Shown: positions 3,670-32,971 of the stretch, in pieces
How the letters are laid out: the number at the start of each line of letters is the position of its first letter
How positions within the stretch are numbered: the stretch's first letter is position 1
Assembly (NCBI GenBank): GCA_000434555.1
Contig: FR880111.1
Span: 2,161 to 66,160, forward strand
Direction: 5' to 3'
DNA from: Clostridium sp. CAG:524
Lineage (GTDB): Bacteria > Bacillota_I > Bacilli_A > RF39 > UBA660
DNA: 64,000 nt
Program-made: the position numbers and the translations under genes
Notes under the pieces: model-generated
Database searches by the model: none
What the model saw: only the letters and a program-made list of their open reading frames with translations
Told to the model about the DNA's origin: nothing

Positions 3670-4362
3670 ATGAATAATAATGTAATAAAAGTTAAAGCAG
3701 AAAAAATATATAGAGGAAAACTTTTATCAAGAGTTATTAAGATGGGATTACTTATTTTATTACTATTTTTTTCATTATTATATTTAGTACTATATGTTGT
3801 CAATAGTAATGGATATTTTACTATTAAATTAGACAAGAATTTGAAAGCTGAAAGACATATACTTTTATCTTCTGACTCAGAATTTTCTACTGAAACTGTG
3901 GAAATTAAAGTAAAAGGATTAGAGTATATGGATAATATTACTGAATCATGGATACCAATGGATGAAGTAATAAAAAAAGAGGGCGATAATAGTGGTGATA
4001 ACTATATTGCTTATACATACTTTATAAAAAATGATGGAGAACAAAAAGCCGATTATAAAAGTAAGATTGTTGTCGAATCAGTTATAAAGAATGTAGATGA
4101 TGCTGTTAGGGTTGCGGTATTTACTAATGGCGAAAAAAAAGTTTATGCTAAAAAGGCAAAAAATGGTAAAGAGGAGCCAAATACAATTGCGTTTTTATCA
4201 AATCATTTAATTATGGAACAAGAAAGAAATGGGTTAGAACCTGGACAAATGGACAGGTATACAATTCTTGTTTGGTTAGAAGGAAAAGACCCGGAATGCA
4301 TCGATGACATTATTGGCGGAGAAATGAAAATGTCAATGGTAATCACTGAAAAAAGTGAATAA
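3670..4362 (+). CDS. Membrane-anchored paralog of the locus-A secreted family (TapA-like role possible)
   Basis: N-terminal TM is MGLLILLLFFSLLYLVLYVV followed by NSNGYFT, a variant of the SYAWF motif. The C-terminal motif YTILVWLEGKDPECIDD is shared with the 4377, 8897 and 10065 products. Confidence 0.6.
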   Translation: MNNNVIKVKAEKIYRGKLLSRVIKMGLLILLLFFSLLYLVLYVVNSNGYFTIKLDKNLKAERHILLSSDSEFSTETVEIKVKGLEYMDNITESWIPMDEVIKKEGDNSGDNYIAYTYFIKNDGEQKADYKSKIVVESVIKNVDDAVRVAVFTNGEKKVYAKKAKNGKEEPNTIAFLSNHLIMEQERNGLEPGQMDRYTILVWLEGKDPECIDDIIGGEMKMSMVITEKSE

Positions 4363-4376
4363 TTTAGAGAAAGGAA

Positions 4377-5480
4377 ATGTATATGGAAAATCAAAATGAT
4401 AATTCTACAAATAATACTTTTCAACAAGCAGAAGTAGTTACTCCTGTTGAAAATAAAGTTGTAGAAGAAACTAAAAAAGAAAAAAAAGAAGAATCTAATG
4501 ATGGTAGAAAAAAGATTCTTACAGCTTTCTTAATGTTAATAGTAACAGCTATTTCATTAACAACAGCATCATATGCATGGTTCACAGAAAATACAACTGT
4601 AACTGTTGATAGTATTGATGTTAATGTTAGTGCAGCAAATGGTATCCAAGTTTCTGTTGATGCTGTTAACTGGAAAGCTAATATTACTACTGCAGAAATA
4701 ACTGGTTCTGCATATCAAGGTAATACTAATCAATTACCTAGTCAAATTGTACCAGTTTCAACAATCGGAGAAGTTGATACAACTACAGGATTTATGAAAA
4801 TGTTTAAAGGAAGTATTGAAGCTGATGCTGGTACTGCTCATGGTTATAAAATAGTTGCTTCACGTTCAACTGAACAAGCAGGCACACTTGGAGACTTTAT
4901 AGCATTTGACTTATTCTTACTTGCTACACAACCAACAACTGTATATTTAACAACAACTTCAGATGTTATTGCTAGTGGAGCTGACACTGGACTAAAAAAT
5001 GCAGCTAGAGTTGCATTCCTATATGAAGGTAGTGCAGCTACTGGTGCTAGTGCTGATGCTATCGCACTTAAAGGTGCTACATCTCATGGAAATGGAAATA
5101 CAAATATATTCTGGGAACCAAATAACAATATACATAAACCAGGAGGAGTTGCTCAAGCGCAAAACTACGGACAAACTAGTTTTACAACTAATACAGTAGT
5201 TCCAAATTATTTAGGTATTAAGGCTGATATTACTGCAGAAACAGCACTTGATTATCAATCTAATAGTGCTACATATTTTGATACTGTTACACCTGATATA
5301 ACAACTCCAGAAGATAATAATGCTAATGGAGAATATAAAACACTATTTAATTTAGCAGCTGGTATTAATAAAGTAAGAATATATGGATGGGTAGAAGGAC
5401 AAGATTACGACTGTGAAAACAACGCATCTGGTACTAATATCAAATTTAATATTCAAATATCTAAGAATGCTAATCCATAA
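4377..5480 (+). CDS. SipW-dependent-type signal peptide protein, TasA/camelysin-like; candidate major fibre subunit
   Basis: Hydrophobic segment ILTAFLMLIVTAISLTTASYAWFTENTTV ends in the SipW-cognate motif. The mature part is rich in Ala/Thr/Gly/Asn. C-terminal motif is VRIYGWVEGQDYDCENN. The gene lies immediately upstream of a SipW-type peptidase. ATG at 4383 has better RBS spacing than 4377. Confidence 0.7.
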   Translation: MYMENQNDNSTNNTFQQAEVVTPVENKVVEETKKEKKEESNDGRKKILTAFLMLIVTAISLTTASYAWFTENTTVTVDSIDVNVSAANGIQVSVDAVNWKANITTAEITGSAYQGNTNQLPSQIVPVSTIGEVDTTTGFMKMFKGSIEADAGTAHGYKIVASRSTEQAGTLGDFIAFDLFLLATQPTTVYLTTTSDVIASGADTGLKNAARVAFLYEGSAATGASADAIALKGATSHGNGNTNIFWEPNNNIHKPGGVAQAQNYGQTSFTTNTVVPNYLGIKADITAETALDYQSNSATYFDTVTPDITTPEDNNANGEYKTLFNLAAGINKVRIYGWVEGQDYDCENNASGTNIKFNIQISKNANP

Positions 5481-5498
5481 TAGAGAAAGAGGTGTAGA

Positions 5499-6053
5499 AT
5501 GAAAGGGAAAAAAATATTTAAGGTTATTTTAGATGTGTTAGTGTGGATAATTATTATCCTTGCTGCTAGTGTTACTTTGATTACACTAACTTCTCGTGAA
5601 AAAGGAGTTTCTCAAGTATTTGGATATGTGCCATTAAATATTCAAACAGGATCAATGGAACCTACAATTATGACTGATGATTTAATCATCACAAAACAAT
5701 ATGATGGTAAGAGTGAACTTAAAGAGGGAGATGTTATCTCATTTAGAGCAACAGAACAAGATACTTATATCATTAAAACACACCGTATTAAGTCTGTTTT
5801 AACTGTTAATGGTATGACTTCATATGTTACTCAAGGTGATAATAATACCGGTGAAGATCCTCAACAAGTAGCTCCTGGTGATATTATTTCTGTATGGAAT
5901 GGAACAAGAATTCCTAAATTAGGAGCTGTTCTTACATTCTTAAAGACTAAAGTTGGATTCTTTGTATGTATAATATTACCACTTGCAGCATTCTTTATAT
6001 ATCAATTATATAAATTTATAATGCTATTACTTGATTATAAAAAAGTTAAATGA
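5499..6053 (+). CDS. Signal peptidase I, SipW/ER-archaeal type (copy 1)
   Basis: N-terminal TM. Catalytic Ser box GSMEPTI, His box IIKTHRI, then TQGDNNTGEDP. C-terminal TM is FFVCIILPLAAFFIY. This layout is typical of SipW/Sec11-type peptidases. Confidence 0.8.
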   Translation: MKGKKIFKVILDVLVWIIIILAASVTLITLTSREKGVSQVFGYVPLNIQTGSMEPTIMTDDLIITKQYDGKSELKEGDVISFRATEQDTYIIKTHRIKSVLTVNGMTSYVTQGDNNTGEDPQQVAPGDIISVWNGTRIPKLGAVLTFLKTKVGFFVCIILPLAAFFIYQLYKFIMLLLDYKKVK

Positions 6054-6068
6054 TTTGTTATATAAATT

Positions 6069-6091
6069 GACTACGAAAGTAGTCTTTTTTA
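6069..6091 (+). terminator. Rho-independent terminator after locus-A module 1
   Basis: The sequence is gactac-gaaa-gtagtc followed by tttttt. Confidence 0.6.
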
Positions 6092-6115
6092 TTGTAGTAA
6101 AATATTGTATTTTTC

Positions 6116-6163
6116 TTGTAATTCTATATTCAAATATGATAAAATTAATATGAATATAGAATT
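6116..6163 (+). promoter_or_regulatory. Putative sigma-A promoter overlapped by a perfect 13-bp inverted repeat (candidate operator) for locus-A module 2
   Basis: The -35 is TTGTAA at 6116-6121. An 18-nt spacer leads to the TGn-extended -10 TGATAAAAT at 6137-6145. Inverted-repeat arms are aattctatattca (6120-6132) and tgaatatagaatt (6151-6163). Confidence 0.4.
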
Positions 6164-6183
6164 AAGAATAGAGGTGAAGAGAA

Positions 6184-7764
6184 TTGTCAACATATATGAG
6201 ATTTTTATATGACTTTATGGAACAATTCTTTTCTGGAGTTATAAATATTTTTATGGGTGTTGTTAGAGGATTTGGAAAGATGTTTAACTTTAAAGCATAC
6301 TTATCAATACTTAAAGAATATTCTTCAGAATTTTCAGTTGGTCAATGGATATTAGTAGGAGTAGCAGTACTTTTAGTATTCGCTTTTTTAGCAGGAATAT
6401 GTTTCTTAATATATCTACTTATAAGAAAATATTTAAGATTTAGAAAAACACTTGTTGAACAAGAAAGTTTGCTTGAAGAAGTAGCTAAACTTGATAGAGA
6501 TGTTATAAGACTTAATCAAGAAAAAGAAGAATTATATGCTTTAAAAGTTTCTCAAATAGGACTTACTCCACAAGTCAGTGGAAGTAATATAAAAATGGAT
6601 ATGCCAAAAGAAATTAAAGAAGAAAATGGTGAAGAAAGTGCTGAAGGTGAAAAAGCTGAAGAAGTTCCAACTGAAGCAGCTAATGGAAGCAGATTCTTTA
6701 AATTAACTCAAATAGATGAGGAGTATGCTAATAAGACACCTGAAAACTTTGGCAATACATTTACACTTGAAGAATTATGTGAAACATTTAGAAATTTTGC
6801 AGCATCAAGAATGAAACTATATTATAAAATTAAAATTATTAGATTATTTGTAGCAGCTCTTGGAGCAACAAGACTTGTAATTTTACAAGGTATCTCTGGT
6901 ACAGGTAAAACATCACTACCATATGCGTGGGGTAAATTCATAAGTAGAGATGCAACTATCGCATCAGTACAACCATCATGGAGAGATAGAACTGAACTTT
7001 TTGGATACTTCAACGAATTTACTAAGAAGTTTAATGAAACAGAAGTTTTAAAAGCAATGTATGAAGCAAGCTATAATGATGAAATGTATTTAACAATACT
7101 AGATGAAATGAATATCGCTCGTGTTGAATACTATTTTGCGGAAATGCTATCAATATTAGAAATGCCTTCTCGTGATGAATGGGTAATTGACTTAGTACCT
7201 AATGTATGGCCAAACGATCCAAAACATTTACCTGATGGAAAACTTAAAATACCAGATAACATGTGGTACATTGGTACAATCAATAACGATGATTCAACAT
7301 TCATGGTTACTGATAAAGTTTACGACCGTGCTATGCCAATAGACATAAATGATAAAGGTCAAGCATTTGATGCTCCTGATACACCTGGTATTAGAATTAA
7401 CAGTAGTTACTTAGAAAGCTTATTTAATAAAGCAAAAGCAGAACATCCAGTATCACAAGATACATTAAATAAACTTGAAGACATGGATAATTATGTTATT
7501 GAACATTTTAGACTTGCCTTTGGTAATCGTATCGTTAAACATATCAAAGAATTCGTTCCAGTTTATGTAGCGTGCGGTGGTACTGAACTTGATGGATTTG
7601 ATTATATTCTTTGTAAAAAAGTCTTAAGAAAATTTGAACAATTAAACTTATCATTCATTCGTGATGAAATAGATGGATATGTTAAATTTTTAGATAAGAC
7701 ATTTGGCAAAGAAAATATGAGTGAATGTAAAGAATATTTAGCAAGACTTAAGAAAGCAATGTAA
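6184..7764 (+). CDS. Membrane-anchored McrB-like AAA+ (AAA_5/GTPase-type) NTPase with coiled-coil linker
   Basis: TTG start 7 nt after GAGGTG. TM WILVGVAVLLVFAFLAGICFLIYLLI is followed by the basic stretch RKYLRFRK, which places the C-terminal part in the cytoplasm. Coiled coil is LVEQESLLEEVAKLDRDVIRLNQEKEEL. Walker A is LQGISGTGKTSL. McrB-type blocks are SVQPSWRDRTELFGYF, LTILDEMNIARVEYYFAEMLSILE and WYIGTINNDDSTFMVTDKVYDRAMPI. Confidence 0.75.
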   Translation: MSTYMRFLYDFMEQFFSGVINIFMGVVRGFGKMFNFKAYLSILKEYSSEFSVGQWILVGVAVLLVFAFLAGICFLIYLLIRKYLRFRKTLVEQESLLEEVAKLDRDVIRLNQEKEELYALKVSQIGLTPQVSGSNIKMDMPKEIKEENGEESAEGEKAEEVPTEAANGSRFFKLTQIDEEYANKTPENFGNTFTLEELCETFRNFAASRMKLYYKIKIIRLFVAALGATRLVILQGISGTGKTSLPYAWGKFISRDATIASVQPSWRDRTELFGYFNEFTKKFNETEVLKAMYEASYNDEMYLTILDEMNIARVEYYFAEMLSILEMPSRDEWVIDLVPNVWPNDPKHLPDGKLKIPDNMWYIGTINNDDSTFMVTDKVYDRAMPIDINDKGQAFDAPDTPGIRINSSYLESLFNKAKAEHPVSQDTLNKLEDMDNYVIEHFRLAFGNRIVKHIKEFVPVYVACGGTELDGFDYILCKKVLRKFEQLNLSFIRDEIDGYVKFLDKTFGKENMSECKEYLARLKKAM

Positions 7765-7779
7765 TAAGAAAGGATTTGT

Positions 7780-8892
7780 ATGAATAAGAATGAATTATTA
7801 AATTTATTAGATGACACTGATAGTAAAGCTATAGAACAATTTTGTGGTTCGAATGATTCACATGTTGTTATTAATTCATCTTTTCAAAGTGTTGAATATG
7901 ATTATTCATGGATAGATAAGATAGAAGAAACACTTGTATATCTAGATAATATCATTAGAAATCCTAAAAGATTTATCATGCAGGAAGAAGAAGTTGTTCC
8001 TGTTGAAAAAGCTAAAAAAATAAGTCAAGAAACAATTAAACATTTAGCTCAACATACAGATTTAATACAAGATGTAGACGAAGATGGTACTATTACACCA
8101 AGTAAAGTACTTAACGTACATAAAGAAGAAAGTTTTGATATTTATGAGAATAGATTTATAATTTCACTCTTAAATAATCTAAATTACTTCTTTACTTTAA
8201 GAAAACAAGTTACAGCAAGTGGCAGTTATGCTAAAAAGAAAAAAGTAATGACTTACACAGGTAAAACTAAACTTGGTAATGAAGAAGTAAATATAAGTTT
8301 AAATATGCAAACAAACTTCTCTGAAGATTTAGGTGGTGTTTCAAGCAGTGGTGAATCAATCGAACAAAGAATTGCTAAAATAGAATTAGTAGTAGGAGAT
8401 TTCTTAAAAACACCATTTGTAAAAGAATTAGCTAACGCAGCACCTGTTAAATCACCAATAAGAAAAACAAACACTATACTTAAGAATCCTAACTTTCAAA
8501 AAGCATTAGAATTATGGGAATTTATTGAACAATATGACGTTAAAGATAAAAAAGAAACAAATGACTCTAAAGAAAGTGTTGATGAAGAAAAAACTAAAAA
8601 TAGAATGGATGGAGCATTCTTTTTAGATTATGTTATTCTAAATGAACTTGATAATAATAAAACATATAAAAAAGATCAAATAAATAGATATGCTCTTAAG
8701 AAATTAATGGAAGACTTTATCGCTAATAATAGAAATCATTCTATGAAAGAATTTAAGAAAATATTACAAGAAGAATTTAAACTCGCATTAGAAAAAGAAG
8801 AAAAAACAGATAAAGAAATTATTAAGAGATTTAAAAATTTATTAAAACATTATAGAAAAAATAAACAAGATGCATTTGCATATTTGAGGTAA
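7780..8892 (+). CDS. Partner of the McrB-like NTPase; weak McrC/DUF2357-like N-terminal motif, no recognisable nuclease domain
   Basis: 15 nt downstream of the NTPase gene. The FDIYENRFIISLLNNL motif resembles the D.xENRf block of McrC/DUF2357-type partners. The C-terminal third is Lys/Glu-rich and probably helical. I see no convincing PD-(D/E)xK motif and no TM. Confidence 0.45.
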   Translation: MNKNELLNLLDDTDSKAIEQFCGSNDSHVVINSSFQSVEYDYSWIDKIEETLVYLDNIIRNPKRFIMQEEEVVPVEKAKKISQETIKHLAQHTDLIQDVDEDGTITPSKVLNVHKEESFDIYENRFIISLLNNLNYFFTLRKQVTASGSYAKKKKVMTYTGKTKLGNEEVNISLNMQTNFSEDLGGVSSSGESIEQRIAKIELVVGDFLKTPFVKELANAAPVKSPIRKTNTILKNPNFQKALELWEFIEQYDVKDKKETNDSKESVDEEKTKNRMDGAFFLDYVILNELDNNKTYKKDQINRYALKKLMEDFIANNRNHSMKEFKKILQEEFKLALEKEEKTDKEIIKRFKNLLKHYRKNKQDAFAYLR

Positions 8893-8896
8893 TAAG

Positions 8897-10054: not shown

Positions 10055-10064
10055 GAGGTGTATT

Positions 10065-11114: not shown

Positions 11115-11122
11115 GGTAGCAT

Positions 11123-11698: not shown

Positions 11699-11714
11699 TT
11701 TAGAAAGGATTCAT

Positions 11715-12260: not shown

Positions 12261-12267
12261 CATATAC

Positions 12268-15200
12268 ATGAAAGATAGCATTAATAAAATTTATAATGCG
12301 ATTATCAATTATATAATTGATTTCTTTCATGTGTTTAAAAAAAGATTTAATAAATTTAAAAGAAAAACTAAACGTAAACTTAGAAAACTATATTATTATG
12401 AAATACTTGGTGTTATAGCTGTATCAGTTTACTTCTATAGATTCTTATGTAAGATATATAAAAAGCCTATATTTAAAAAGTTTAGAAATAAAAGTAAACT
12501 TTTATATAAGAAATCTCTTGTTAAACTTGAAAAAGCTAAATATGATTATGAAACATATTTACTTGAGATAAGATATGATACTAAAGATAAAATGGATAAT
12601 GTAAAGAATAAATATTCTAAATATTGTACTAAAAGAATTCTTGCGAAAAGTTTTGTATTAATAGCTTTATCTGTATTTTTGATATATGATACATATTCAT
12701 GGTTCTATAATGAATATGTAAGTAAGGGTACTAAGATTAGTTTGGGTACAGTAGAACATATAGTTAATCAATATGATAAGAATGGTAATTTAATTGGAAT
12801 AGAAGGAGATATTGTTACTGTTGTTGAAGAAGATAACTTAGCAAATACTTTTAAGAATACAAGATATGTTGAAATAAAAAATACTGGTTCTCTTAACTTA
12901 GATTATAATTTAACATTTACATTAGATGGTACTATGTCTAATGCTGGTGTACTTTATTATAGAGTAATTGATATTACTGAAGATGTAATTAATACTACTA
13001 TTACAAGTGGTTCTAATACTAAACTTGAAGCTTATGCTAAAAATAATCCAACACCTAATAATCTTGAAACAGATGCAGTTAATCCAGTTTCAAATATGAC
13101 AACAATACCACAAGTATTAATAAAAGGTGAAATTGATAAAGATGAAGATAACCTTGAAAATAATTATAGATATTTTAGAATAGATTATGGTATGTATCAA
13201 AGTGTTAATTCTGCACTTTATTCTGGTGCTTCAGTTGCTGTTCATGCAAAGGTGTATTGTACTCAAAGAGGAATAGACGCAAGCCTTATAAATGAAGGAC
13301 AAATATGGTTAGTTGAAAATGAAGAACAATTTAGAGATGCAGTACTTAATGCTTTAAGTGGAGATACAATTAAACTAGCAGATGACATTACTATAAATGG
13401 AAGTGTAGATTTACAAAGAAGAGTTGGTATAGATGTAGATACATATAATTTACATGTTACTGGAGATCTTGTTTATGATTTTGTAGAACTTGGTAAACTA
13501 AAGATTGATACATCTAAAGGCGGTAAAATAGATGTAGATAGTAGACTATATGTAAATGCTCCTAAATCACAAATACATTTTACAGGTCTTAATAAAGACT
13601 ATGATATTTTTGTAGGAGGAGAATTTACTGTAAATGGTATACAAAATGAAGAAGAAGATGGAGTCCTTTTAGAAGCAGTAAGAATTGTTAAAAATAAGAT
13701 AGGTAATATTCCAGCAGATATAATAGTACTATCAAATACAAGACTTACTATTGCACCTAATGTAGAACTTAATTATGTAATTGGTGCTCCTGGAAGTACA
13801 AACATAGAAATATTAAACAATGGTACAATTACTCAAATACAATTACAAGATATGAATCTTATTGATTCATTCTCAAAATATCAAATATATATTTACAACT
13901 TAAATACAATACTTGGAGTACTTGGAGGTTCATCAATAATCTTACCATCAAACTCAACTCCATATACAGGACCTAATACAGGTAATACATTAATTATAAG
14001 AGGAGTTAGTTCAAATGATATAACTGTTTCAGGTAGTGATCACTATACTGGAGATGATATCAATCAAGGAGCTCCAGAAGATTCAGTCGTACCAATACAA
14101 GGAGAAGTAGATTCATATTATGTTTATATAAGAGATAATAAAGAAACTTTAGAAGGACTTTTAAAAGCATATTTTGATGAAATAGATGCGGCTACTACAA
14201 CTGATAAAATAACCGCTATTAAAAAGTTAGTAATTTATACATTAAATCAAGCATATTTTGAAAATGATGACTTCAATTATATAGCAAGTGATGCAATGCC
14301 TAATATAGAATATTTAGGACTTCAAAATGCAACAATAAGTGATAATAAAACAATTAATAAAATAGCTAGTAATACATTAAAAGATAAAACATCAATAAAA
14401 ACATTAATATTATCAAAAACACTTACTACTATTGGTGATAATGCATTTGCAAATGTTAACTTAGGTAGAATAAGTACTAATAGAACATTTAGATTTTTAT
14501 CAATACCAAGTTCAGTTACAAGTATAGGTTCAGGAGCCTTCAAAAATGCAAAATATGTTAACTTTGAAGGACAAATACCTCCATCAGTTGCAAGTGGAGC
14601 ATTTAACAATGTATCTAATGGTACAAAATTCTTTGTTCCAGAAGGAGCAATAACAGCATATAGAGATGCTAATAACATTAATGAAGCATATATATATTAT
14701 GCAGCAACACTATCAGACAATAAAAGATATTTCTTATATGATTATAAAGATGGATATGGAATATCATACTTTATAAATAGTGTATCTGTTGGATCTAATT
14801 TAACAATACCAAATACAATAACTATGAATTCTATTACTAAAGACATAACCGCTCTTGGATATAATTCATATAGAAATTTAATTACACCAGCAACAGGTAC
14901 TAGTGTAGTTATTCCAAATACAGTTAAATTAATAGATAGTTATGCATTCTATGAAGATAATATAATAGATATAAATTTATCTAATGTTGAAATAATTAAT
15001 TCCTATGCATTCTACAAAACAAAACTTACTAAACTAGAATCTAATACAATAACTACTATTGGAGACTATACTTTCTATGAAAATCCTATTACATATATAT
15101 CACTTGGTAAAATAGAAAAAATAGGTAAATATGCATTTACTAATAATACAACATTATATGAAATGGATTTAGGTCCAGTTAAGAGTATAGGTGATTATGC

Positions 15201-18200
15201 ATTTTATAATTGTCCTCAACTCGGTAGAGTATGGTTTAGAAATATGACTACTGTTGTTGTTAACAATGGTAAAAGTATAGACCTAACAGTTGGTGAAAAT
15301 GCTGTATTTACTAATTGGGGAATGTATCTTGATGGAAGACTTAGGGTATATGTTCCAGATGGTAATGATAGTGAAGGATTTAATTATCTTGAAGGATATA
15401 AAAAATTATTCCAAGGAAGTAGTGCATTTATTTATCCAATGGGAACTATTATTGGTAACTATAAACATGTAGCTATACCTTATGATTGGGGAGAATATAG
15501 TGTTAAAACTGTTACTAAGAAAAATGGTGCTGGAAATGATGTTACAGCTTATGAAATAATAGAATATCATGGAGCTGATTTAACAAGTAGTTATCAACTT
15601 CCAGATATAATAACTGTAGGTGATGGACTTAGTGCTTCAATAAGTGGTAATTCATGGCAACAAGGTACTGGATATAGATATGGTGGAACACTTACTATAA
15701 CAAATAATATGGATACAGCTGTTACAGATTGGACAGTTAGATTAGCACTCCCAGATGGCGTTACATGGGGAAGTACATACACAAATGCAGTAGAAAATAT
15801 AGATGGAAATATAGTAACATTATCTAATGCAACGTATAATGGAACAATAAATCCAAATAGTAGTATAAATATATCGTTCTATTATGATACAATTAGTCAA
15901 AGCCTAAGTGCATCAATACTTAGTACTTATTCCTCTAGTACACCAATCATGAATATAATATCAATAGGAAAATATGCTTATAGACATACAATTTCAAAAG
16001 AAAATCAAACAATAGATTTAGTCGCAAATAACTTACTTAACATTGATGCCCATGGTTTAGAAAACATTAGTGTTAAATCGCTTACATCAAGTAGTTTAGT
16101 ATCCATAGGTGATTATGGACTTTATAATACAGCACTTCAAATAGTAACACTTCCTAATCTAAATTCACTAGGTAATTATGCTATGTCAGGAATGGATACA
16201 CTATATAGCGTTAACTTAGGTAATATAAGAGTTATGGGAGAGAATGCTATTAGTAATAATCCTAACTTAGAACAAGTATTCATAGGTACAACTGATACAG
16301 ATAATATGTCAGTTCATAGTACTGCAATGAGTAATATAGGTGCTAACACTAATAATAGACTTAGAATATATGTACCTGATACAAAATTAGATTTCTATAA
16401 AACATTATTTAGTACATATTCTGATTATATTTATCCAACTGGTACAATAGTAGGAAGTTTCGTTAATACACCAATTCCATTTGACATAGGAGAATATAGT
16501 GTACGTGAAATTACTGTTAAAGATAGAAATAATAATGATGTAACAGGTTATGAAATAATAGAATATCATGGACCGGATATATCAAATACATTCATGATAC
16601 CAGAAACAGTTACAATAAATGGAGAACAAAAAGATATTATATCTATAGGTTCTTATGCATTTAAACATACAAAAGTAAATGGTACTGGTAGTGATATTAT
16701 TAACAATAAATTGTTAGTTATTAATGATCATGCATTCGAAAATATTAAAGCCATAAATTCATTTACTTCAAATAGCTTACTTGATTTAAAAAGCTATGCA
16801 TTTAATAATGGAAGCCTTATATCTGTAAATACACCTAATTTAAGAAGTATTGGATCATATGCTCTTGCTAATATGAATGGTTTATATAAAATAAATCTTG
16901 GTAAAGTATATAATATGGAAGCAAATTCAGTATATAACTTACCAAACTTAGTTCAAATATTCTTTACACCTCCAGAAGAAACTAAAGTATTTGATCAGTA
17001 TGCATTTACTGATGTAGGAACTCTTACAAGTAATAGAATAAGATTTTATGTTGCTGAATCAGTAATAAGTAGTGAAACACAAATTCCAACTACAACAGCT
17101 ATCAATGTTACAGATACATGTAATAGAACATTAACAAACAGAAGATATACTTATACATGTACAGTTACTGTTAGAAATAATACAGGACATGAATTATCTA
17201 ACTGGACAACATCAATACATCTAGGTAATGTTTCTTTCCAATCTGCAACAGATGTTTCATATGAAAATTCATCATCAAGTGTTAAATTTACCAATACAAG
17301 CGCAAATGGTAATTTAGCAAACGGAGAAAGTACAACATTTACATTTGTAGTTAGATCTAATAATAACTATTCAGCTTGGACTTACTTAAACAACCATTTA
17401 TTTGATTCAACTGGTACATACTATACAACTAATACAACAACTAAAAATGATTATTTAACTGATATATATGCTAATTCATTTAGGACAGAATATAAAGATT
17501 ATTTCTATGATTATGGAACAATACTTGGTGATTATAGTAGTTCATCAATGCCATATAATATAGGTGAATATAGCGTTATATTAAGAGACCACACTACTAA
17601 ATCTGGCGAAACAGTTACAGGATGGGAAATAGTTGAATATCATGGTGCTAACTTAAATTCAAGGTATATAATACCAACATCGCTTACAGTAGATGACAAA
17701 ACTTATGATGTTATTGGAATAGGTGATAGAGCATATAGATGGGCTACAATGGATTCAGGAGGACAATTTGATATTGTTACTACATCTATTAGATATGTTT
17801 ATGAATATGCATTTTATAATTTAAATGGTGTTCATGAAATTAATTTACCTAACACTGACTTTATTGGAAATTATGCATTCTTTAATAATAAATTATATAA
17901 AGCAACAACAACTAGTTTAATTGAACTTGGTGCCTATGCTTACGCTAACAACACAAGTCTTAATTATGTAAATGCGGGACCAGTTACAAGTATAGGTGAA
18001 GGTGCATTCTATGGATGTATAGGCATGGAGCAAATGTTCTTCACATCAACTGAAGCTGATAGTGGCGCAAGTGGAATGAAAATAGGAGTAGGAGTTAACT
18101 CATTCTATAATGTAGGTACTACTCTTGGAAAAAGATTTAGAATTTATGTTCCAGATGGAACAATAGGTACTTCTGATGTTACATATCAAGAAGCATATAA

Positions 18201-19596
18201 AAAGACATTCCCATCAAATGTAAAAGATTATATTTATCCAACTGGATATATTATTGGTAGTTATAAATATGGAGCACTACCATACGATATAGGTGAATAT
18301 AGTGTACGTGAAGTAACACTAAAAAATATGTATAATGCAGACGTAACAGGTTGGGAAATAATAGAATATCATGGACCGGATATAACTTCAACATTTGAAA
18401 TACCAAATACAATTACCGCAGGTGGTCAAAACTTAGATGTTGTATCAATTGGTACTTATGCTTATTATGGAGTAGATGTACAAACTGGAGAAAGATGGAT
18501 AGTAAATCTACCTAATAGTGTCGTATTAATAGGTGATTATGCATTCTATAAAACAGATGTTACAAGAGTATCTGGAAATCAAATAACAAGACTTGGTAAA
18601 TATTCATTCGCTGATTGTGAAAAACTTACTAATGCAATATTTAATAGTGTTGTAATAGCCGATGATTATTGTTTATATAGTTGTGGAGCTATATCATATA
18701 TTCAATTTGGTACAGGTACTACTTCTATCAATGATTATGCATTATATAACCCATATCAAGGTGGACCAAATACAACACTTAGTATGCAAGTAAGTTCAGT
18801 TCCTACAACAGCGTCAACTGCACTACCAGAATATGAAACTGTACTTTTTGGTATATTCTATAGATCACATTTTACATATTCAGTTCCATCATCAGTATTA
18901 AGCGATTTCGAAAGTACTACACCATGGAGATATCATAATTCATCAAGTGCTCAATACTCTTCTGACTTCTTATATATACTTGATAATAATAATCAAATAA
19001 GAATAACATCATACACAGGAAATAATAATACTGTTACAATACCAGATACACTAGATGTAAATGGAGTAAGTAGAAGAGTTACTAATATAGCACCAGATGC
19101 TTTTGATGGTAACAACTATGTTAGAAACTTAACACTTCCAGCTTACTTAAGTGAAATACCTGGTGGATTCTTAGATGGTAATACAGAAATAACTAATATA
19201 TATGTAAGTGCTAATAATACATCATTTACATCAGTTAATGGAGTATTATTTGATAAAGATGAAACAACATTAATAAGATATCCTAATGGAAAAGGAAGTC
19301 AAAATTATACTGTACCAAATACTGTTAAAACAATTGCTTATAGAGCATTTGCTAATCAAACAAATTTATATACTATAAGAATGGGTAATAGTTTAGAAAG
19401 TATAGGTGCTTATGCATTTACAGGATGTACTAATTTAGCTACTTATACATTCTATACAGATGTACCTAAATTAACAGCTTATGCAACATTTGAAAAAGTA
19501 TATAATTTAAATATATATGTACCAACAAACTACTATAACAACTATAATACAGATGTATATTTCAAACGATATAATAGTTACTTAGTAGAGAATTAG
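12268..19596 (+). CDS. Giant (2442 aa) surface adhesin: long N-terminal membrane region with SipW-type motif, TasA-like segment, BspA-type leucine-rich repeat blocks, CBM-like beta-sandwich inserts
   Basis: Two hydrophobic segments are present, and the second ends in FLIYDTYSWFYNEY. VEIKNTGSLNLDYNLTF is TasA-family-like. There are many BspA/TpLRR-type repeats (IGDYAFYNCPQLGRVWF, IGSYAFKHT, IGNYAFFNN, IGAYAFTGCTNL). CBM2/3-like inserts are GGTLTITNNMDTAVTDWTVRLALPDGVTWGSTY and YTCTVTVRNNTGHELSNWTTSIHLGNVSF. Confidence 0.8.
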   Translation: MKDSINKIYNAIINYIIDFFHVFKKRFNKFKRKTKRKLRKLYYYEILGVIAVSVYFYRFLCKIYKKPIFKKFRNKSKLLYKKSLVKLEKAKYDYETYLLEIRYDTKDKMDNVKNKYSKYCTKRILAKSFVLIALSVFLIYDTYSWFYNEYVSKGTKISLGTVEHIVNQYDKNGNLIGIEGDIVTVVEEDNLANTFKNTRYVEIKNTGSLNLDYNLTFTLDGTMSNAGVLYYRVIDITEDVINTTITSGSNTKLEAYAKNNPTPNNLETDAVNPVSNMTTIPQVLIKGEIDKDEDNLENNYRYFRIDYGMYQSVNSALYSGASVAVHAKVYCTQRGIDASLINEGQIWLVENEEQFRDAVLNALSGDTIKLADDITINGSVDLQRRVGIDVDTYNLHVTGDLVYDFVELGKLKIDTSKGGKIDVDSRLYVNAPKSQIHFTGLNKDYDIFVGGEFTVNGIQNEEEDGVLLEAVRIVKNKIGNIPADIIVLSNTRLTIAPNVELNYVIGAPGSTNIEILNNGTITQIQLQDMNLIDSFSKYQIYIYNLNTILGVLGGSSIILPSNSTPYTGPNTGNTLIIRGVSSNDITVSGSDHYTGDDINQGAPEDSVVPIQGEVDSYYVYIRDNKETLEGLLKAYFDEIDAATTTDKITAIKKLVIYTLNQAYFENDDFNYIASDAMPNIEYLGLQNATISDNKTINKIASNTLKDKTSIKTLILSKTLTTIGDNAFANVNLGRISTNRTFRFLSIPSSVTSIGSGAFKNAKYVNFEGQIPPSVASGAFNNVSNGTKFFVPEGAITAYRDANNINEAYIYYAATLSDNKRYFLYDYKDGYGISYFINSVSVGSNLTIPNTITMNSITKDITALGYNSYRNLITPATGTSVVIPNTVKLIDSYAFYEDNIIDINLSNVEIINSYAFYKTKLTKLESNTITTIGDYTFYENPITYISLGKIEKIGKYAFTNNTTLYEMDLGPVKSIGDYAFYNCPQLGRVWFRNMTTVVVNNGKSIDLTVGENAVFTNWGMYLDGRLRVYVPDGNDSEGFNYLEGYKKLFQGSSAFIYPMGTIIGNYKHVAIPYDWGEYSVKTVTKKNGAGNDVTAYEIIEYHGADLTSSYQLPDIITVGDGLSASISGNSWQQGTGYRYGGTLTITNNMDTAVTDWTVRLALPDGVTWGSTYTNAVENIDGNIVTLSNATYNGTINPNSSINISFYYDTISQSLSASILSTYSSSTPIMNIISIGKYAYRHTISKENQTIDLVANNLLNIDAHGLENISVKSLTSSSLVSIGDYGLYNTALQIVTLPNLNSLGNYAMSGMDTLYSVNLGNIRVMGENAISNNPNLEQVFIGTTDTDNMSVHSTAMSNIGANTNNRLRIYVPDTKLDFYKTLFSTYSDYIYPTGTIVGSFVNTPIPFDIGEYSVREITVKDRNNNDVTGYEIIEYHGPDISNTFMIPETVTINGEQKDIISIGSYAFKHTKVNGTGSDIINNKLLVINDHAFENIKAINSFTSNSLLDLKSYAFNNGSLISVNTPNLRSIGSYALANMNGLYKINLGKVYNMEANSVYNLPNLVQIFFTPPEETKVFDQYAFTDVGTLTSNRIRFYVAESVISSETQIPTTTAINVTDTCNRTLTNRRYTYTCTVTVRNNTGHELSNWTTSIHLGNVSFQSATDVSYENSSSSVKFTNTSANGNLANGESTTFTFVVRSNNNYSAWTYLNNHLFDSTGTYYTTNTTTKNDYLTDIYANSFRTEYKDYFYDYGTILGDYSSSSMPYNIGEYSVILRDHTTKSGETVTGWEIVEYHGANLNSRYIIPTSLTVDDKTYDVIGIGDRAYRWATMDSGGQFDIVTTSIRYVYEYAFYNLNGVHEINLPNTDFIGNYAFFNNKLYKATTTSLIELGAYAYANNTSLNYVNAGPVTSIGEGAFYGCIGMEQMFFTSTEADSGASGMKIGVGVNSFYNVGTTLGKRFRIYVPDGTIGTSDVTYQEAYKKTFPSNVKDYIYPTGYIIGSYKYGALPYDIGEYSVREVTLKNMYNADVTGWEIIEYHGPDITSTFEIPNTITAGGQNLDVVSIGTYAYYGVDVQTGERWIVNLPNSVVLIGDYAFYKTDVTRVSGNQITRLGKYSFADCEKLTNAIFNSVVIADDYCLYSCGAISYIQFGTGTTSINDYALYNPYQGGPNTTLSMQVSSVPTTASTALPEYETVLFGIFYRSHFTYSVPSSVLSDFESTTPWRYHNSSSAQYSSDFLYILDNNNQIRITSYTGNNNTVTIPDTLDVNGVSRRVTNIAPDAFDGNNYVRNLTLPAYLSEIPGGFLDGNTEITNIYVSANNTSFTSVNGVLFDKDETTLIRYPNGKGSQNYTVPNTVKTIAYRAFANQTNLYTIRMGNSLESIGAYAFTGCTNLATYTFYTDVPKLTAYATFEKVYNLNIYVPTNYYNNYNTDVYFKRYNSYLVEN

Positions 19597-32916: not shown

Positions 32917-32942
32917 AAATTATCATGTTTTTAAATATTTTA

Positions 32943-32971
32943 ATGACATTTTAATGCAGTTATGTTATAAT
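32943..32971 (+). promoter_or_regulatory. Internal sigma-A promoter (-35 ATGACA, 17 nt spacer, TGn-extended -10 TGTTATAAT)
   Basis: ATGACA at 32943-32948 and TATAAT at 32966-32971, preceded by TGT. The RBS GTAGGTGA follows. Confidence 0.55.

What the first reader, a model, noticed from the sequence alone, without database searches (positions are those of the whole stretch)
3670..19596. Two-module SipW-type peptidase / TasA-like operon of exceptional complexity: candidate new surface-fibre system
Eleven co-directional genes have 4-18 nt spacers. The only break is a 130-nt gap carrying a hairpin terminator and a putative promoter with a palindrome. Each module ends with, or contains, an ER/archaeal-type signal peptidase (SMEP Ser box, HR/HE His box, C-terminal TM). 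Five products have a hydrophobic segment ending in SYAWF, SYAWF, SYAWF, AYAWM or TYSWF. This is the SipW-cognate signal-peptide class known from B. subtilis TasA/TapA.

Module 1 comprises an anchored paralog, an Ala/Thr/Gly/Asn-rich 367-aa protein (the likely major subunit) and a peptidase. Module 2 comprises an McrB-like NTPase, its partner, three paralogs, a second peptidase and a 2442-aa LRR adhesin. The described tapA-sipW-tasA and clostridial sipW-bsaA loci are 2-3 gene systems. To my knowledge a version with multiple minor subunits, a giant tip-adhesin-like substrate and an NTPase has not been described.
Basis: partly seen in the sequence, partly recalled or inferred. Interest (0 to 1): 0.85.

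Follow-up and report, generated by a model that had tools for sequence, protein, structure and literature searches.

The report
Signal-peptidase-dependent surface fibre cluster with McrB-like GTPase
This is a real gene cluster, conserved in gene order across uncultured low-GC gut bacteria, that most likely builds an adhesive surface fibre from proteins cut by two dedicated signal peptidases; it always carries a restriction-enzyme-like GTPase pair, a link the literature has named ("CoCoPALM") but never analysed.

Summary
Coordinates 3670-19596 contain ten co-directional genes (not eleven) with 4-18 nt spacers and one 130-nt gap. An eleventh conserved gene lies upstream at 2547-3662.

Both peptidases pass the archaeal-type signal peptidase I model. 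Five products end their single hydrophobic segment in [ST/A]Y[AS]|W[FM]. This motif is kept in about 96% of orthologs and is absent from all 76 orthologs of the anchored protein.

The full gene order recurs in about 20 complete loci, down to 45% subunit identity. At least 524 species-level genomes encode the major subunit. By their record titles these are uncultured Bacilli/"Mollicutes"/CAG-type gut MAGs.

The "TasA-like" reading is only partly supported. The 191-aa protein links to camelysin/TasA-type domains (hhalign 96%). The 230/367/385/349-aa proteins form a separate family with no Pfam or PDB match.

The NTPase pair is not an inserted defence island. It is the best-conserved part of the cluster and fits "CoCoPALM" (Bell et al. 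2024), which is named but undescribed.

Best model: a membrane-anchored heteropolymeric fibre dependent on SipW-type (archaeal/ER-type) signal peptidases, tipped by a giant LRR/CBM adhesin, with a GTPase module of unknown role. I rate it a new variant of a known kind, interest 0.62.

The parts
2547..3662 (+). A371: predicted cytoplasmic 371-aa protein and first gene of the cluster. It has no TM segment and no family or PDB match, and it evolves fast.
   Evidence: It lies 7 nt upstream of the 230-aa gene. It is present at the head of the window-type (type-1) loci and sits next to the McrB/DUF2357 pair in rearranged loci. It is 20-27% identical to distant orthologs. It has no Pfam, PADLOC or PDB hit.
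3670..4362 (+). B230: membrane-anchored relative of the subunit family. It has one TM (residues 26-44) and no cleavage motif. I propose it is the base or anchor subunit.
   Evidence: The TM comes from the hydropathy scan. None of 76 orthologs has the [ST]Y[AS]|W[FM] motif, but G-x-F-T-[IV]-x-L-D directly after the TM is nearly invariant and the C-terminal W[LI]EGxDP[ED]C...GGE[MI]K motif is shared with the subunit family. hhalign to G385 gives 91.5%.
4377..5480 (+). C367: likely major subunit. Cleavage is predicted after SYA66, giving a mature N-terminus of WFTENTTVTV.
   Evidence: It is 41% A+T+G+N, the window maximum. It has 1744 homologs, all unnamed and without Pfam domains. The most conserved block is residues 61-75, spanning the cleavage site and the first mature strand. 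The AF2 model has pLDDT 77 and is a beta-sandwich. It has no PDB fold or sequence match.
5499..6053 (+). Signal peptidase 1 (184 aa), archaeal/ER (SipW) type.
   Evidence: TIGR02228 scores 87.9 bits against a cutoff of 51.85. GSMEP and THR boxes are present. TMs lie at residues 10-28 and 152-170.
6069..6094 (+). Intrinsic terminator or attenuator after module 1.
   Evidence: It is a 6-bp GC-containing stem, a GAAA loop and TTTTTTATTG. A hairpin plus T-run occurs at the same position, with different stem sequences, in at least 12 related loci.
6116..6145 (+). Putative module-2 promoter: TTGTAA, an 18-nt spacer containing a TG dinucleotide, then TAAAAT (extended -10).
   Evidence: This is read from the sequence. 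TATG[AGT]TAAAAT is conserved in relatives. The overlapping palindrome (6122-6132 / 6151-6161) is not conserved as a palindrome because the left arm differs in relatives.
6184..7764 (+). E526: membrane-anchored McrB-family GTPase. It has a TM at 62-80, a charged helical stretch, then an AAA+ domain with GISGTGKT, ILDEMN and INNDD motifs. It is the CoCoPALM-type McrB homolog.
   Evidence: It matches PDB McrB 6hz4 at E 2.4e-5 over residues 230-416, NCBIfam McrB at 2.9e-5 and PADLOC PDC-M26A at 1e-37. It is the most conserved protein of the cluster, at 64-68% identity where C367 is 46-52%. It has more than 8000 unnamed homologs.
7780..8892 (+). F370: McrC-like partner. It has a DUF2357 domain and a Lys/Glu-rich helical C-terminus, and no detectable nuclease.
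   Evidence: Pfam DUF2357 scores 47.7 bits against a cutoff of 23.3. It has no PDB or PADLOC hit. It lies immediately downstream of E in all 28 loci where E is complete.
8897..10054 (+). G385: minor subunit paralog of C367 with an extra C-terminal small beta domain.
   Evidence: hhalign to the C367 family gives 98.8%, E 4e-17, over 272 columns. The SYAWF motif is present. Residues 302-370 give weak DUF4073/CHB_HEX_C hits.
10065..11114 (+). H349: minor subunit paralog with an extra C-terminal small beta domain.
   Evidence: hhalign to G385 gives 99.0% and to C367 97.7%. The SYAWF motif is present.
11123..11698 (+). I191: small single-domain subunit and remote member of the camelysin/TasA-like superfamily.
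   Evidence: The deep profile A6 against Peptidase_M73-type N-domains of related loci gives hhalign 96.2%, E 2.4e-9, over 157 columns. One of 40 relatives hits Pfam Peptidase_M73 at 5e-6. The best PDB sequence hit is AbpX at E 0.054. The AF2 model has pLDDT 82 and gives only generic beta-sandwich Foldseek hits.
11715..12260 (+). Signal peptidase 2 (181 aa), archaeal/ER (SipW) type.
   Evidence: TIGR02228 scores 100 bits against a cutoff of 51.85. KSMEP and THE boxes are present. There are N- and C-terminal TMs.
12268..19596 (+). K2442: giant adhesin. It has a conserved ~120-aa basic N-terminal extension, a hydrophobic segment ending in TYS|WF, a ~280-aa N-domain, BspA-type LRR blocks and CBM2-like modules.
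   Evidence: LRR_5 scores 301 bits over 7 stretches and CBM_2 scores 35 bits. The N-terminal extension is conserved in orthologs. Its only link to Peptidase_M73-type domains is a 20-aa motif, IKNTGSLNLDYNL. It has no LPXTG.

Best explanation
The region is one conserved apparatus of eleven genes in two transcription units. It most likely builds a sortase-independent, membrane-anchored surface fibre in uncultured low-GC gut bacteria. By their record titles these are Bacilli/'Mollicutes'/'Clostridium sp. CAG:1000'-type MAGs; I infer they are RF39-like.

Proposed steps:
1. The subunits are exported with an N-terminal signal-anchor. The two cluster-encoded archaeal/ER-type signal peptidases cut after [ST]-Y-[AS]. 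This frees an N-terminus beginning W-F/M that is the most conserved part of the major subunit.
2. By analogy with TasA, BsaA and archaeal Abp fibres, I propose this new N-terminal strand inserts into the beta-sandwich of a neighbouring subunit (donor-strand complementation).
3. The fibre would comprise the 367-aa protein as shaft, the 385/349/191-aa proteins as low-copy adaptor or tip subunits, and the 2442-aa LRR/CBM protein as the distal adhesin.
4. The 230-aa paralog lacks the cleavage motif in every ortholog, so it stays in the membrane and anchors the fibre base.
5. A terminator hairpin after the first peptidase, followed by a separate promoter, sets a high ratio of shaft to accessory proteins.
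6. The membrane-anchored McrB-family GTPase, its nuclease-less McrC-like partner and the 371-aa cytoplasmic protein form a conserved inner-face module. This is the arrangement named CoCoPALM by Bell et al. 2024. I suggest it gates or energises assembly, but its role is unknown.

Shown: gene content, peptidase family membership, motif conservation, paralogy, synteny, and conservation of the terminator position. Inferred: cleavage, polymerisation, subunit order, anchoring, and any role of the GTPase.
For: - Peptidases: TIGR02228 scores 88 and 100 bits against a cutoff of 51.85, and the Ser and His boxes are intact.
- Motif: it is restricted to 5 of 80 window ORFs, all in the cluster. It is conserved in 162 of 169 orthologs and absent from 0/76 anchor orthologs.
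- The same motif precedes a threshold-passing Peptidase_M73 domain in locus L001.
- TasA's donor strand is residues 28-38, the N-terminal segment of the fibre subunit (PMC9674648).
- The block spanning the cleavage site and first strand is the most conserved part of C367. It is the least confidently placed part of both AF2 models.
- Paralogy of C, G and H is 97.7-99%, and B links to G at 91.5%.
- I191 links to camelysin-type domains at 96.2%.
- Synteny: the complete order A-B-C-pep-E-F-G-H-I-pep-K appears in about 20 loci, down to 45% C367 identity. One lies on a 532-kb contig next to rpsF-ssb-rpsR.
- At least 524 species-representative genomes encode a C367 relative.
- E is the best-conserved protein of the cluster.
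- E and F are always adjacent, and a SipW-type peptidase lies in the same cluster in every locus with E.
- A terminator hairpin is conserved in position, with different stem sequences, in at least 12 loci.
- No cluster protein has LPXTG.
- BsaA fibres are membrane- rather than wall-anchored (PMC11580942).
- CoCoPALM is described in PMC11090510.
Against: - No window protein reaches any TasA, BsaA, camelysin or SipW-cognate-signal model.
- The major-subunit family shows no relation to Peptidase_M73 beyond the signal peptide.
- Foldseek finds no fibre-forming protein for either model. The best E is 0.12 for C367, and I191 gives only generic CBM-like sandwiches.
- Polymerisation, cleavage and surface location are untested, and no multimer prediction could be run.
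- Many relatives have a shorter arrangement without E/F nearby (B, C, a ~545-aa protein, a ~410-aa peptidase fusion, then a giant protein). The GTPase is therefore not obligatorily adjacent.
- The GTPase's closest library match is a candidate defence protein, PDC-M26A.
Confidence: 0.58

Rival explanations
1. The McrB-like/DUF2357 pair, possibly with the 371-aa protein, is a conflict or defence module derived from McrBC rather than part of the assembly machine. It would sit with the fibre genes because the fibre is a phage receptor or a sensor of attack. The GTPase would couple envelope events to a protective response rather than to assembly.
For: - E is homologous to McrB.
- The strongest library hit is the PADLOC candidate defence protein PDC-M26A at 1e-37.
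- The nearest annotated relatives on plasmids are large AAA/DUF2357 pairs of CoCoNuT type, about 40% identical in the GTPase domain.
- Bell et al. place CoCoPALM inside a clade of predicted restriction-like systems.
Against: - No nuclease or other effector domain is detectable in F or A.
- E has no DNA-binding N-domain and carries a TM segment instead.
- E is the most conserved protein of the cluster, at 64-68% identity. It keeps the same position between the two peptidase modules in about 20 complete loci, down to 45% identity of the major subunit. That pattern is atypical of defence genes.
- F does not hit any PADLOC model.
Confidence: 0.2
2. The proteins do not form a polymer. The cluster would be a dedicated export and processing unit for a set of independent surface or secreted proteins: an abundant coat or matrix protein, accessory binding proteins and a giant adhesin. 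These proteins would merely share a specialised signal peptide and peptidase.
For: - There is no detectable homology or fold match of the C/G/H/B family to any known fibre subunit.
- Foldseek's weak hits are to lectins and carbohydrate-binding modules.
- Related loci use the same motif on many unrelated DUF285 adhesins.
Against: - Four to five paralogs in fixed order, including one that is uncleavable and membrane-anchored, is the pattern of heteropolymeric pili rather than of independent exoproteins.
- Conservation is strongest at the new N-terminal strand and at the C-terminal hairpin shared by all paralogs.
- One subunit is a remote camelysin/TasA-type domain, a family whose characterised members polymerise.
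Confidence: 0.18
3. The peptidase-like proteins act as non-catalytic pilus-assembly chaperones, like streptococcal SipA/LepA. The fibre would be assembled by the sortase encoded 11 kb downstream.
For: [quoted passage not shown]
- A sortase-domain gene lies at 30653-32260.
Against: - Both peptidases keep the catalytic Ser and His boxes and pass the enzyme model's threshold.
- No ORF in the window, including every cluster protein, has an LPXTG-type sorting signal.
- The sortase gene is separated from the cluster by unrelated genes, including one for a PcrA/UvrD helicase.
Confidence: 0.04

Closest known systems
Bacillus subtilis tapA-sipW-tasA (and B. cereus sipW-tasA-calY)
   Same: It has a dedicated archaeal/ER-type signal peptidase in the operon. 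Substrates have a conserved small-aromatic-small / aromatic-Phe motif at the cleavage site. This is my own recollection of TasA's TWA|AF and was not tested here. A beta-sandwich subunit has a new N-terminus that forms the donor strand (PMC9674648). An accessory protein anchors or nucleates the fibre. The 191-aa protein is a remote member of the same domain superfamily.
   Different: - There are two peptidases, and neither reaches the SipW equivalog cutoff (101 and 84 bits against 190).
- The major subunit family has no detectable relation to TasA or Peptidase_M73.
- There are four or five structural paralogs plus a 2442-aa LRR/CBM adhesin.
- The anchor is a TM-retaining paralog rather than TapA.
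- The cluster includes a McrB-type GTPase, a DUF2357 protein and a 371-aa cytoplasmic protein.
Clostridium perfringens sipW-bsaA-bsaB-bsaC (BsaA family; Kivimaki et al., PMC11580942)
   Same: It is a SipW-dependent, membrane-anchored (not wall-linked) fibre. There are several TasA-family paralogs per operon and a large adhesive or vWA accessory protein. Export is helped by an NTPase-driven machine, there type IV pilus genes.
   Different: - The window proteins do not hit the BsaA model TIGR04090. Only a DUF285 protein of a related locus does, at E 0.0065.
- The N-E-K isopeptide triad was not assessed.
- The NTPase here belongs to the McrB family and is encoded inside the cluster.
[quoted passage not shown] 2024, PMC11090510)
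   Same: The McrB-like GTPase is fused to an N-terminal TM plus a charged helical segment. The adjacent McrC homolog has DUF2357 and a helical Lys/Glu-rich C-terminus with no recognisable nuclease. Signal-peptidase-family genes lie in the same operon. The GTPase motif INNDD is compatible with the NxD[D/E] signature of that clade.
   Different: The published description is one paragraph, with no gene lists that I could retrieve. It does not mention the subunit family, the cleavage motif, the anchored paralog, the giant adhesin, the two-module layout or the phyletic range described here. Homology of the N-terminal segment to FtsB/FtsL is sub-threshold here (E 0.0095; no DivIC hit).
Archaeal bundling pili and biomatrix proteins (AbpA, AbpX) and cannulae
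   Same: These are TasA-like jelly-roll subunits that polymerise by donor strands without a chaperone or usher. AbpX is the top, though not significant, PDB sequence match of the 191-aa family profile (E 0.054). The AbpA operon has eight genes including a GTPase.
   Different: The archaeal operons have no dedicated peptidase. The GTPase there is unrelated and not conserved. No significant similarity to the window's major subunit was found.
Canonical McrBC type IV restriction systems and CoCoNuT systems
   Same: They share the AAA+ GTPase core (Walker A and B motifs and the signature Asn/Asp motif). The DUF2357 partner is encoded immediately downstream.
   Different: Here there is no DNA- or RNA-binding N-domain and no nuclease. 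The GTPase is membrane-anchored and highly conserved, and it keeps a fixed position inside a surface-protein cluster in about 20 loci. The plasmid relatives are 800-aa plus 600-700-aa pairs in defence-like contexts.

Membership tests
Archaeal/ER-type signal peptidase I (TIGR02228; SipW-type) | Score above the curated cutoff of the family model | tested here: met
   The scores are 87.9 bits (5499-6053) and 100 bits (11715-12260) against a cutoff of 51.85.
Archaeal/ER-type signal peptidase I (TIGR02228; SipW-type) | Catalytic Ser and His boxes, and flanking N- and C-terminal TM segments | tested here: met
   GSMEP with THR, and KSMEP with THE, are read in the translations. TMs lie at 10-28 and 152-170, and at 8-26 and 149-167.
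Archaeal/ER-type signal peptidase I (TIGR02228; SipW-type) | Equivalog of Bacillus SipW (NF046067, cutoff 190 bits) | tested here: not met
   The scores are 101 and 84 bits. The proteins are of the same type but are not SipW orthologs.
TasA / camelysin / BsaA fibre subunits (Pfam PF12389, NF046066, TIGR04090) | Family model hit on the window's subunits | tested here: not met
   There are no hits for any of the six proteins, even at E<=10.
TasA / camelysin / BsaA fibre subunits (Pfam PF12389, NF046066, TIGR04090) | Remote homology by profile-profile comparison | tested here: inconclusive
   It is met for the 191-aa protein: 96.2%, E 2.4e-9, over 157 columns against Peptidase_M73-type N-domains, and 1 of 40 relatives hits PF12389 at 5e-6. 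It is not met for the 367/385/349/230-aa family, which matches only over the signal peptide. For the adhesin N-domain there is only a 20-aa motif.
TasA / camelysin / BsaA fibre subunits (Pfam PF12389, NF046066, TIGR04090) | TasA-like jelly-roll fold recovered by structure search | tested here: not met
   For the C367 model the best PDB match has E 0.12 and TM<=0.19. For the I191 model there are only generic CBM or Ig sandwiches at E ~1e-3 and TM<=0.36, with no TasA, AbpA or CanA in the top 50. Both models are beta-sandwiches, so a distant relation is not excluded.
TasA / camelysin / BsaA fibre subunits (Pfam PF12389, NF046066, TIGR04090) | SipW-cognate signal peptide | tested here: inconclusive
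   No NCBIfam signal-peptide model, TIGR04088 included, matched the N-terminal segments. However, the identical motif precedes a threshold-passing PF12389 domain in L001.
TasA / camelysin / BsaA fibre subunits (Pfam PF12389, NF046066, TIGR04090) | Polymerisation by N-terminal donor-strand exchange | not testable with these tools
   No multimer prediction or experiment was available. The only indirect signs are the highest conservation and the low model confidence of the segment following the cleavage site.
CoCoPALM (Bell et al. 2024) | McrB-family GTPase with the shortened NxD signature | tested here: inconclusive
   The GTPase domain is confirmed. The motif reads I-N-N-D-D, which is compatible with NxD followed by D. 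HMMER, however, aligns it gap-free to E. coli N-T-A-D, so the deletion is not proven.
CoCoPALM (Bell et al. 2024) | FtsB-like TM plus coiled-coil fused to the GTPase | tested here: inconclusive
   A TM at 62-80 is followed by a charged helical stretch. The FtsL model hits only at E 0.0095, below its cutoff, and there is no DivIC/FtsB Pfam hit.
CoCoPALM (Bell et al. 2024) | Adjacent McrC homolog (DUF2357) carrying a coiled-coil, often without a nuclease | tested here: met
   DUF2357 scores 47.7 bits against a cutoff of 23.3. The C-terminal third is Lys/Glu-rich and 23% of the protein is K+E. No nuclease model or PDB hit was found. Coiled-coil formation itself was not computed.
CoCoPALM (Bell et al. 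2024) | Operonic association with signal-peptidase-family genes | tested here: met
   There are two in the window. A SipW-type peptidase lies in the same cluster in all 30 related loci that carry the GTPase.
Canonical McrBC restriction system | DNA-binding N-domain on McrB and a PD-(D/E)xK nuclease on McrC | tested here: not met
   The N-terminus of E is a membrane segment. F has no nuclease hit in Pfam, PADLOC or PDB. Structure-level detection of a degenerate nuclease fold was not possible.
Sortase-assembled Gram-positive pili | LPXTG-type sorting signal on the subunits | tested here: not met
   No window ORF ends with LPXTG plus a hydrophobic tail.
Type IV filaments | Class III signal peptide, cut before the hydrophobic helix by a PilD-type peptidase, and a PilB-type ATPase | tested here: not met
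   The conserved motif lies after, not before, the hydrophobic segment. The peptidases belong to the S26 family and the NTPase to the McrB family.

The most novel reading that the evidence does not exclude
The cluster encodes a previously unrecognised, NTP-driven pathway for building Gram-positive surface filaments. A membrane-anchored McrB-family GTPase hexamer, with its McrC-like plug and the 371-aa partner, would form the cytoplasmic motor or platform. SipW-type peptidases would play the role of the prepilin peptidase. An uncleaved paralog would form the base, three minor subunits and a giant adhesin would form the tip, and a new beta-sandwich family would form the shaft. This would be functionally analogous to type IV filament machines but built entirely from non-homologous parts, and it would show a restriction-enzyme motor exapted for envelope assembly.
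Probability: 0.3. Interest if true: 0.9.

Novelty: new variant of a known kind. Interest (0 to 1): 0.62.

Why it matters
- **Scale and host group.** The cluster occurs in at least 524 species-level genomes of uncultured, low-GC gut Bacilli from human, Hadza, ruminant and chicken samples, as judged from record titles. To my knowledge nothing is known about these organisms' surface biology.
- **Adhesion.** A conserved fibre tipped by a 2400-aa LRR/CBM adhesin is a strong candidate for how these organisms attach to host, dietary fibre or partner cells.
- **Mechanism.** The cluster gives a concrete, testable anatomy for 'CoCoPALM', which has a name but no description. That anatomy covers which proteins are substrates, which one is the anchor, where the cut is, and how the two modules are expressed.
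- **GTPase exaptation.** If the McrB-type GTPase acts in assembly, it would be a clear case of a restriction-system motor recruited to cell-envelope construction, and a new route to pili in Gram-positives.
- **New protein family.** The subunit family has no Pfam, NCBIfam or PDB counterpart despite more than 1700 homologs.

Tried and rejected
1. **Defence-island insertion of the GTPase pair.** I rejected this as the main reading. The pair is the best-conserved element and keeps its position in about 20 complete loci.
2. **Wall-less host needing a membrane-anchored pilus.** I rejected this. The window encodes sortase, LCP, LtaS-like and YfhO proteins.
3. **Direct TasA membership.** Pfam and NCBIfam at E<=10, profile searches of PDB sequences and two Foldseek searches found nothing for the major subunit.
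4. **One family of six paralogs.** I rejected this. hhalign separates a C/G/H(/B) family from the 191-aa protein and from the adhesin N-domain.
5. **The palindrome as a conserved operator.** The left arm is not conserved in relatives, whereas the extended -10 is.
6. **Phage or plasmid origin.** There is one hit in 2.9 million viral contigs, and it looks like a bacterial cluster. Plasmid matches are to the GTPase domain only, in different systems.
7. **Function of the 371-aa and 370-aa proteins from profiles against PDB.** There were no informative hits. My impression that the C-terminal half of the 371-aa protein looks like a degenerate EAL-type alpha/beta domain could not be tested and is not claimed.
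8. **Protein P0273**, a 646-aa 'fusion' homolog of the GTPase, is an internal duplication or assembly artefact.
9. **Literature.** Four searches for this cluster in RF39, Mollicutes or DUF285 contexts found no description beyond the CoCoPALM paragraph.
10. **Retrieving CoCoPALM gene lists** from the paper's supplements found nothing.

Full report
**1. What is in the sequence**

The window is about 25% G+C. Between 3670 and 19596 there are ten co-directional ORFs of 230, 367, 184, 526, 370, 385, 349, 191, 181 and 2442 aa. They are separated by 4-18 nt, except for a 130-nt gap at 6054-6183. The eleventh is an upstream ORF (2547-3662, 371 aa, 7-nt spacer) that turns out to belong to the same conserved cluster.

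The gap holds a hairpin (GACTAC-GAAA-GTAGTC) followed by TTTTTTATTG at 6069-6094.

**2. The peptidases**

Both small proteins pass the curated threshold of NCBIfam TIGR02228, the archaeal-type signal peptidase I model (87.9 and 100 bits against 51.85). Both also hit Pfam Peptidase_S26. They keep the SMEP serine box and a THR/THE histidine box, and they have N- and C-terminal membrane segments.

They do not reach the equivalog cutoff for Bacillus SipW (101 and 84 bits against 190). They are therefore SipW-type enzymes but not SipW orthologs. Because the catalytic residues are intact, a purely chaperone-like role in the manner of streptococcal SipA is unlikely.

**3. The cleavage-site motif**

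The pattern is a hydrophobic stretch ending in [ST/A]-Y-[AS]-W-[FM].

In 85 related loci the motif is present in 83/84 orthologs of the 367-aa protein. It is also present in 22/22, 21/22 and 20/20 orthologs of the three smaller proteins and in 16/21 orthologs of the giant protein. It is absent from all 76 orthologs of the 230-aa protein.

Small residues at positions -3 and -1 fit a signal-peptidase site. The predicted cut leaves W-F/M as the new N-terminus.

The block spanning this site and the first mature strand (residues 61-75, LTTASYAWFTENTTV) is the most conserved part of the 367-aa family.

**4. How the structural proteins are related**

Profile-profile comparison shows that the 367-, 385- and 349-aa proteins are true paralogs: 98.8%, 99.0% and 97.7% probability over 167-325 columns. 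The 230-aa protein joins them through the shared C-terminal W-[LVI]-E-G-x-D-x-[DE]-C hairpin (91.5%).

The 191-aa protein and the N-domain of the giant protein match that family only over the signal peptide. 'Five or six paralogs' therefore overstates the case. There are at least two, and probably three, structural families that share one export signal.

**5. Is it TasA-like?**

Directly, no.
- None of the proteins hits Peptidase_M73, TasA, BsaA or any signal-peptide model, even at E<=10.
- The 367-aa family profile finds nothing among PDB sequences.
- AlphaFold models of the 367-aa protein (pLDDT 77) and the 191-aa protein (pLDDT 82) are beta-sandwiches. They retrieve only non-significant or generic lectin- and CBM-type matches, with no TasA, AbpA or cannula protein in the top 50.

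Indirectly, partly yes.
- In a 76%-identical relative (L001), the inter-module gap contains DUF285 adhesins. The N-domain of one passes the Pfam Peptidase_M73 threshold (33.3 bits against 22.5) and begins with ...ISYAWFSA.
- An exhaustive HMMER search with the 191-aa family found only 64 representative clusters.
- A profile built from 40 of them aligns to those Peptidase_M73-type domains with 96.2% probability, E 2.4e-9, over 157 columns.
- One of the 40 hits Pfam Peptidase_M73 at 5e-6.
- The top PDB sequence matches are the archaeal TasA-like protein AbpX, although they are not significant (E 0.054).

The system therefore belongs to the world of SipW-type peptidases and TasA-like subunits. 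Its presumed shaft protein, however, is a family with no described counterpart.

**6. Conservation and distribution**

The 367-aa protein has 1744 database homologs, all unnamed and without Pfam domains. Their record titles read 'uncultured Bacilli bacterium', 'Mollicutes/Mycoplasmatota bacterium', 'Clostridium sp. CAG:1000', 'Mycoplasma sp. CAG:877' and 'Erysipelotrichaceae bacterium'. They come from human (including Hadza), ruminant and chicken gut. I infer, but did not test, that this is the RF39-like group of gut Bacilli.

Classifying the ORFs of 85 loci with family HMMs gave three layouts.
- **Window type:** A371, B230, C367, peptidase, [variable insert], McrB, DUF2357, G385, H349, I191, peptidase, giant LRR protein. 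It is complete in about 20 loci, down to 45% C367 identity, and again on a 532-kb JGI contig next to rpsF-ssb-rpsR and parAB.
- **Shorter type:** B, C, a ~545-aa cytoplasmic protein, a ~410-aa peptidase with a long cytoplasmic tail, then a giant protein. It occurs in about 40 loci.
- **Rearranged type:** A-McrB-DUF2357-peptidase lies directly upstream of B-C. It occurs in five loci.

Ortholog identities show that the McrB-like protein is the most conserved member: 64-68% where C367 is 46-52% and A371 is 20-27%.

**7. The junction between modules**

In relatives the gap after the first peptidase ranges from 40 nt to 5 kb. It hosts IS605-family transposase and DUF285 adhesin genes.

Wherever the gap is short, a hairpin plus T-run follows the peptidase stop codon. 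The stem sequences differ between lineages, which argues for a functional terminator or attenuator.

Downstream, TATG[AGT]TAAAAT (an extended -10) is conserved, preceded in the window by TTGTAA. The left arm of the window's palindrome is not conserved.

I infer differential expression, with module 1 (shaft, anchor, peptidase) high and module 2 lower, as in many pilus operons.

**8. The GTPase pair**

The 526-aa protein has a strong TM (62-80) followed by a charged helical stretch. After that comes an AAA+ domain that aligns to the E. coli McrB structure 6hz4 (E 2.4e-5) with Walker A GISGTGKT, Walker B ILDEMN and the signature INNDD. The 370-aa partner has DUF2357, the McrC N-terminal domain, and a Lys/Glu-rich C-terminus. 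No nuclease is detectable.

PADLOC's only hit is a candidate-defence protein, PDC-M26A (1e-37), and the partner hits nothing. Plasmid relatives share about 40% identity in the GTPase domain only. They are much larger AAA/DUF2357 pairs in defence-like contexts.

The literature search was decisive here. Bell et al. 2024 (eLife, PMC11090510) describe, in one paragraph, a large clade of McrB GTPases of the NxD type. [quoted passage not shown] They name the clade CoCoPALM and defer analysis to a future paper. I found no follow-up and no gene lists in the held supplements. The window's pair fits this description, although the FtsB homology and the NxD deletion remain inconclusive here.

**9. The adhesin and the anchor**

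The 2442-aa protein carries seven LRR_5 (BspA-type) stretches and a CBM_2 module. By eye there is a second CBM2-like segment. It has a conserved, very basic ~120-aa N-terminal extension before its hydrophobic segment.

No cluster protein has an LPXTG signal.

The 230-aa protein keeps its TM in all orthologs. Directly after the TM it has a nearly invariant G-x-F-T-[IV]-x-L-D segment that resembles the W-F-T-x-N-x-T-V start of mature C367.

C. perfringens BsaA fibres are reported to be membrane-anchored rather than wall-anchored, and their operon partner BsaC depends on a type IV pilus machine for export (PMC11580942). Both are useful precedents.

**10. Most likely mechanism**

- **Shown:** a conserved two-unit cluster, two active-looking SipW-type peptidases, a lineage-wide cleavage motif on five proteins, one uncleavable membrane paralog, one camelysin-like subunit, a giant LRR/CBM protein, and a highly conserved membrane-anchored McrB/McrC-like pair.
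- **Inferred:**
  - The peptidases cut after [ST]Y[AS].
  - The freed N-terminal strands drive donor-strand polymerisation, as for TasA residues 28-38 (PMC9674648).
  - C367 forms the shaft, G/H/I form adaptors, K forms the tip, and B forms the membrane base.
  - The GTPase module gates or powers assembly from the cytoplasmic face.

My confidence that this is a peptidase-dependent surface assembly is about 0.75. My confidence that it is a donor-strand fibre with roughly this subunit order is about 0.5. My confidence that the GTPase acts in assembly rather than in conflict or regulation is about 0.3-0.4.

**11. Novelty and verdict**

Three elements are known: SipW-dependent TasA/BsaA fibres, operons with several such paralogs, and the bare association of a McrB clade with signal peptidases (CoCoPALM).

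To my knowledge, and in the held literature, four things are not described:
- the actual anatomy, that is, a new subunit family with more than 1700 homologs and no Pfam or PDB counterpart;
- the conserved cleavage motif and the uncleaved anchoring paralog;
- the giant LRR/CBM tip candidate and the two-module expression design;
- the near-fixed eleven-gene order across a large uncultured gut lineage.

I rate it a new variant of a known kind, with interest 0.62.

Noticed in passing
window 26091-28349: This 752-aa protein has four DUF285 repeats and a C-terminal DUF6273 domain. It contains the 'EYVNGQYTYGYM' segment that also follows the camelysin-type N-domains of DUF285 adhesins in related loci. 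It lacks the YAWF-type signal motif, so it may be a related adhesin exported by another route.
   Followed up: partly
window 30653-38083: There is a separate run of co-directional genes: a 535-aa protein with a C-terminal sortase domain, two small ORFs (218 and 229 aa) and a 1466-aa protein with no Pfam hit. No LPXTG-type signal was found in any window ORF, so the sortase's substrate is not obvious.
   Followed up: partly
window 39264-41801, 49100-51145, 52569-54485, 55989-58175: These are cell-envelope genes: YfhO, an LtaS-like sulfatase-family protein, an LCP (LytR_cpsA_psr) protein, and an SH3_3 + cadherin-like + dockerin type I protein. They indicate a walled organism. The dockerin hints at cohesin-dockerin surface complexes.
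   Followed up: no
L018 (91%-identical relative), in the gap between peptidase 1 and the GTPase gene; also L013: The enlarged inter-module gap contains a mini-ORF encoding MKCKNGFTLVELLAVIAVLAILAVLSVPNIIKLV, which is a type IV pilin-like N-terminus (G|FTLVE) truncated after the helix. It is absent from the window. It is curious because export of the C. perfringens Bsa matrix protein depends on type IV pilus genes.
   Followed up: no
window 4377-5480, 3670-4362, 10065-11114 (C-terminal W-x-E-G-x-D-x-[DE]-C motif): The 367-, 230- and 349-aa proteins each contain a single cysteine, and it sits in the shared acidic C-terminal motif. It is invariant in the 367-aa and 230-aa families. A lone conserved Cys next to an Asp/Glu cluster in an exported protein of an anaerobe suggests metal binding or an inter-subunit covalent link.
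   Followed up: no
related loci L005, L030, L032, L037 and about 35 others (type-2 layout): In the shorter layout the SipW-type peptidase is fused, after its C-terminal TM, to a ~240-aa cytoplasmic domain. It is preceded by a ~545-aa helical cytoplasmic protein instead of the McrB/DUF2357 pair. A cytoplasmic partner for the peptidase therefore seems to be a general feature of these systems.
   Followed up: partly
L006, L007, L013, L018 upstream of the A371 ortholog: The closest relatives carry an extra mini-module that the window lacks. It consists of two 185-199-aa proteins with TFAWF or SYAYY motifs and a third SipW-type peptidase of 204 aa. In the window, the divergent NMT1/ABC transporter genes abut the cluster instead.
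   Followed up: no
window 8897-10054 and 10065-11114, C-terminal ~80 aa of each product: Both minor subunits end in a similar small beta domain (...ME[YW]......W......F.G...V.VR......L.F). It gives weak DUF4073, CHB_HEX_C and Tli3 hits. The domain is absent from the major subunit, so it may be a binding or spacing module.
   Followed up: no
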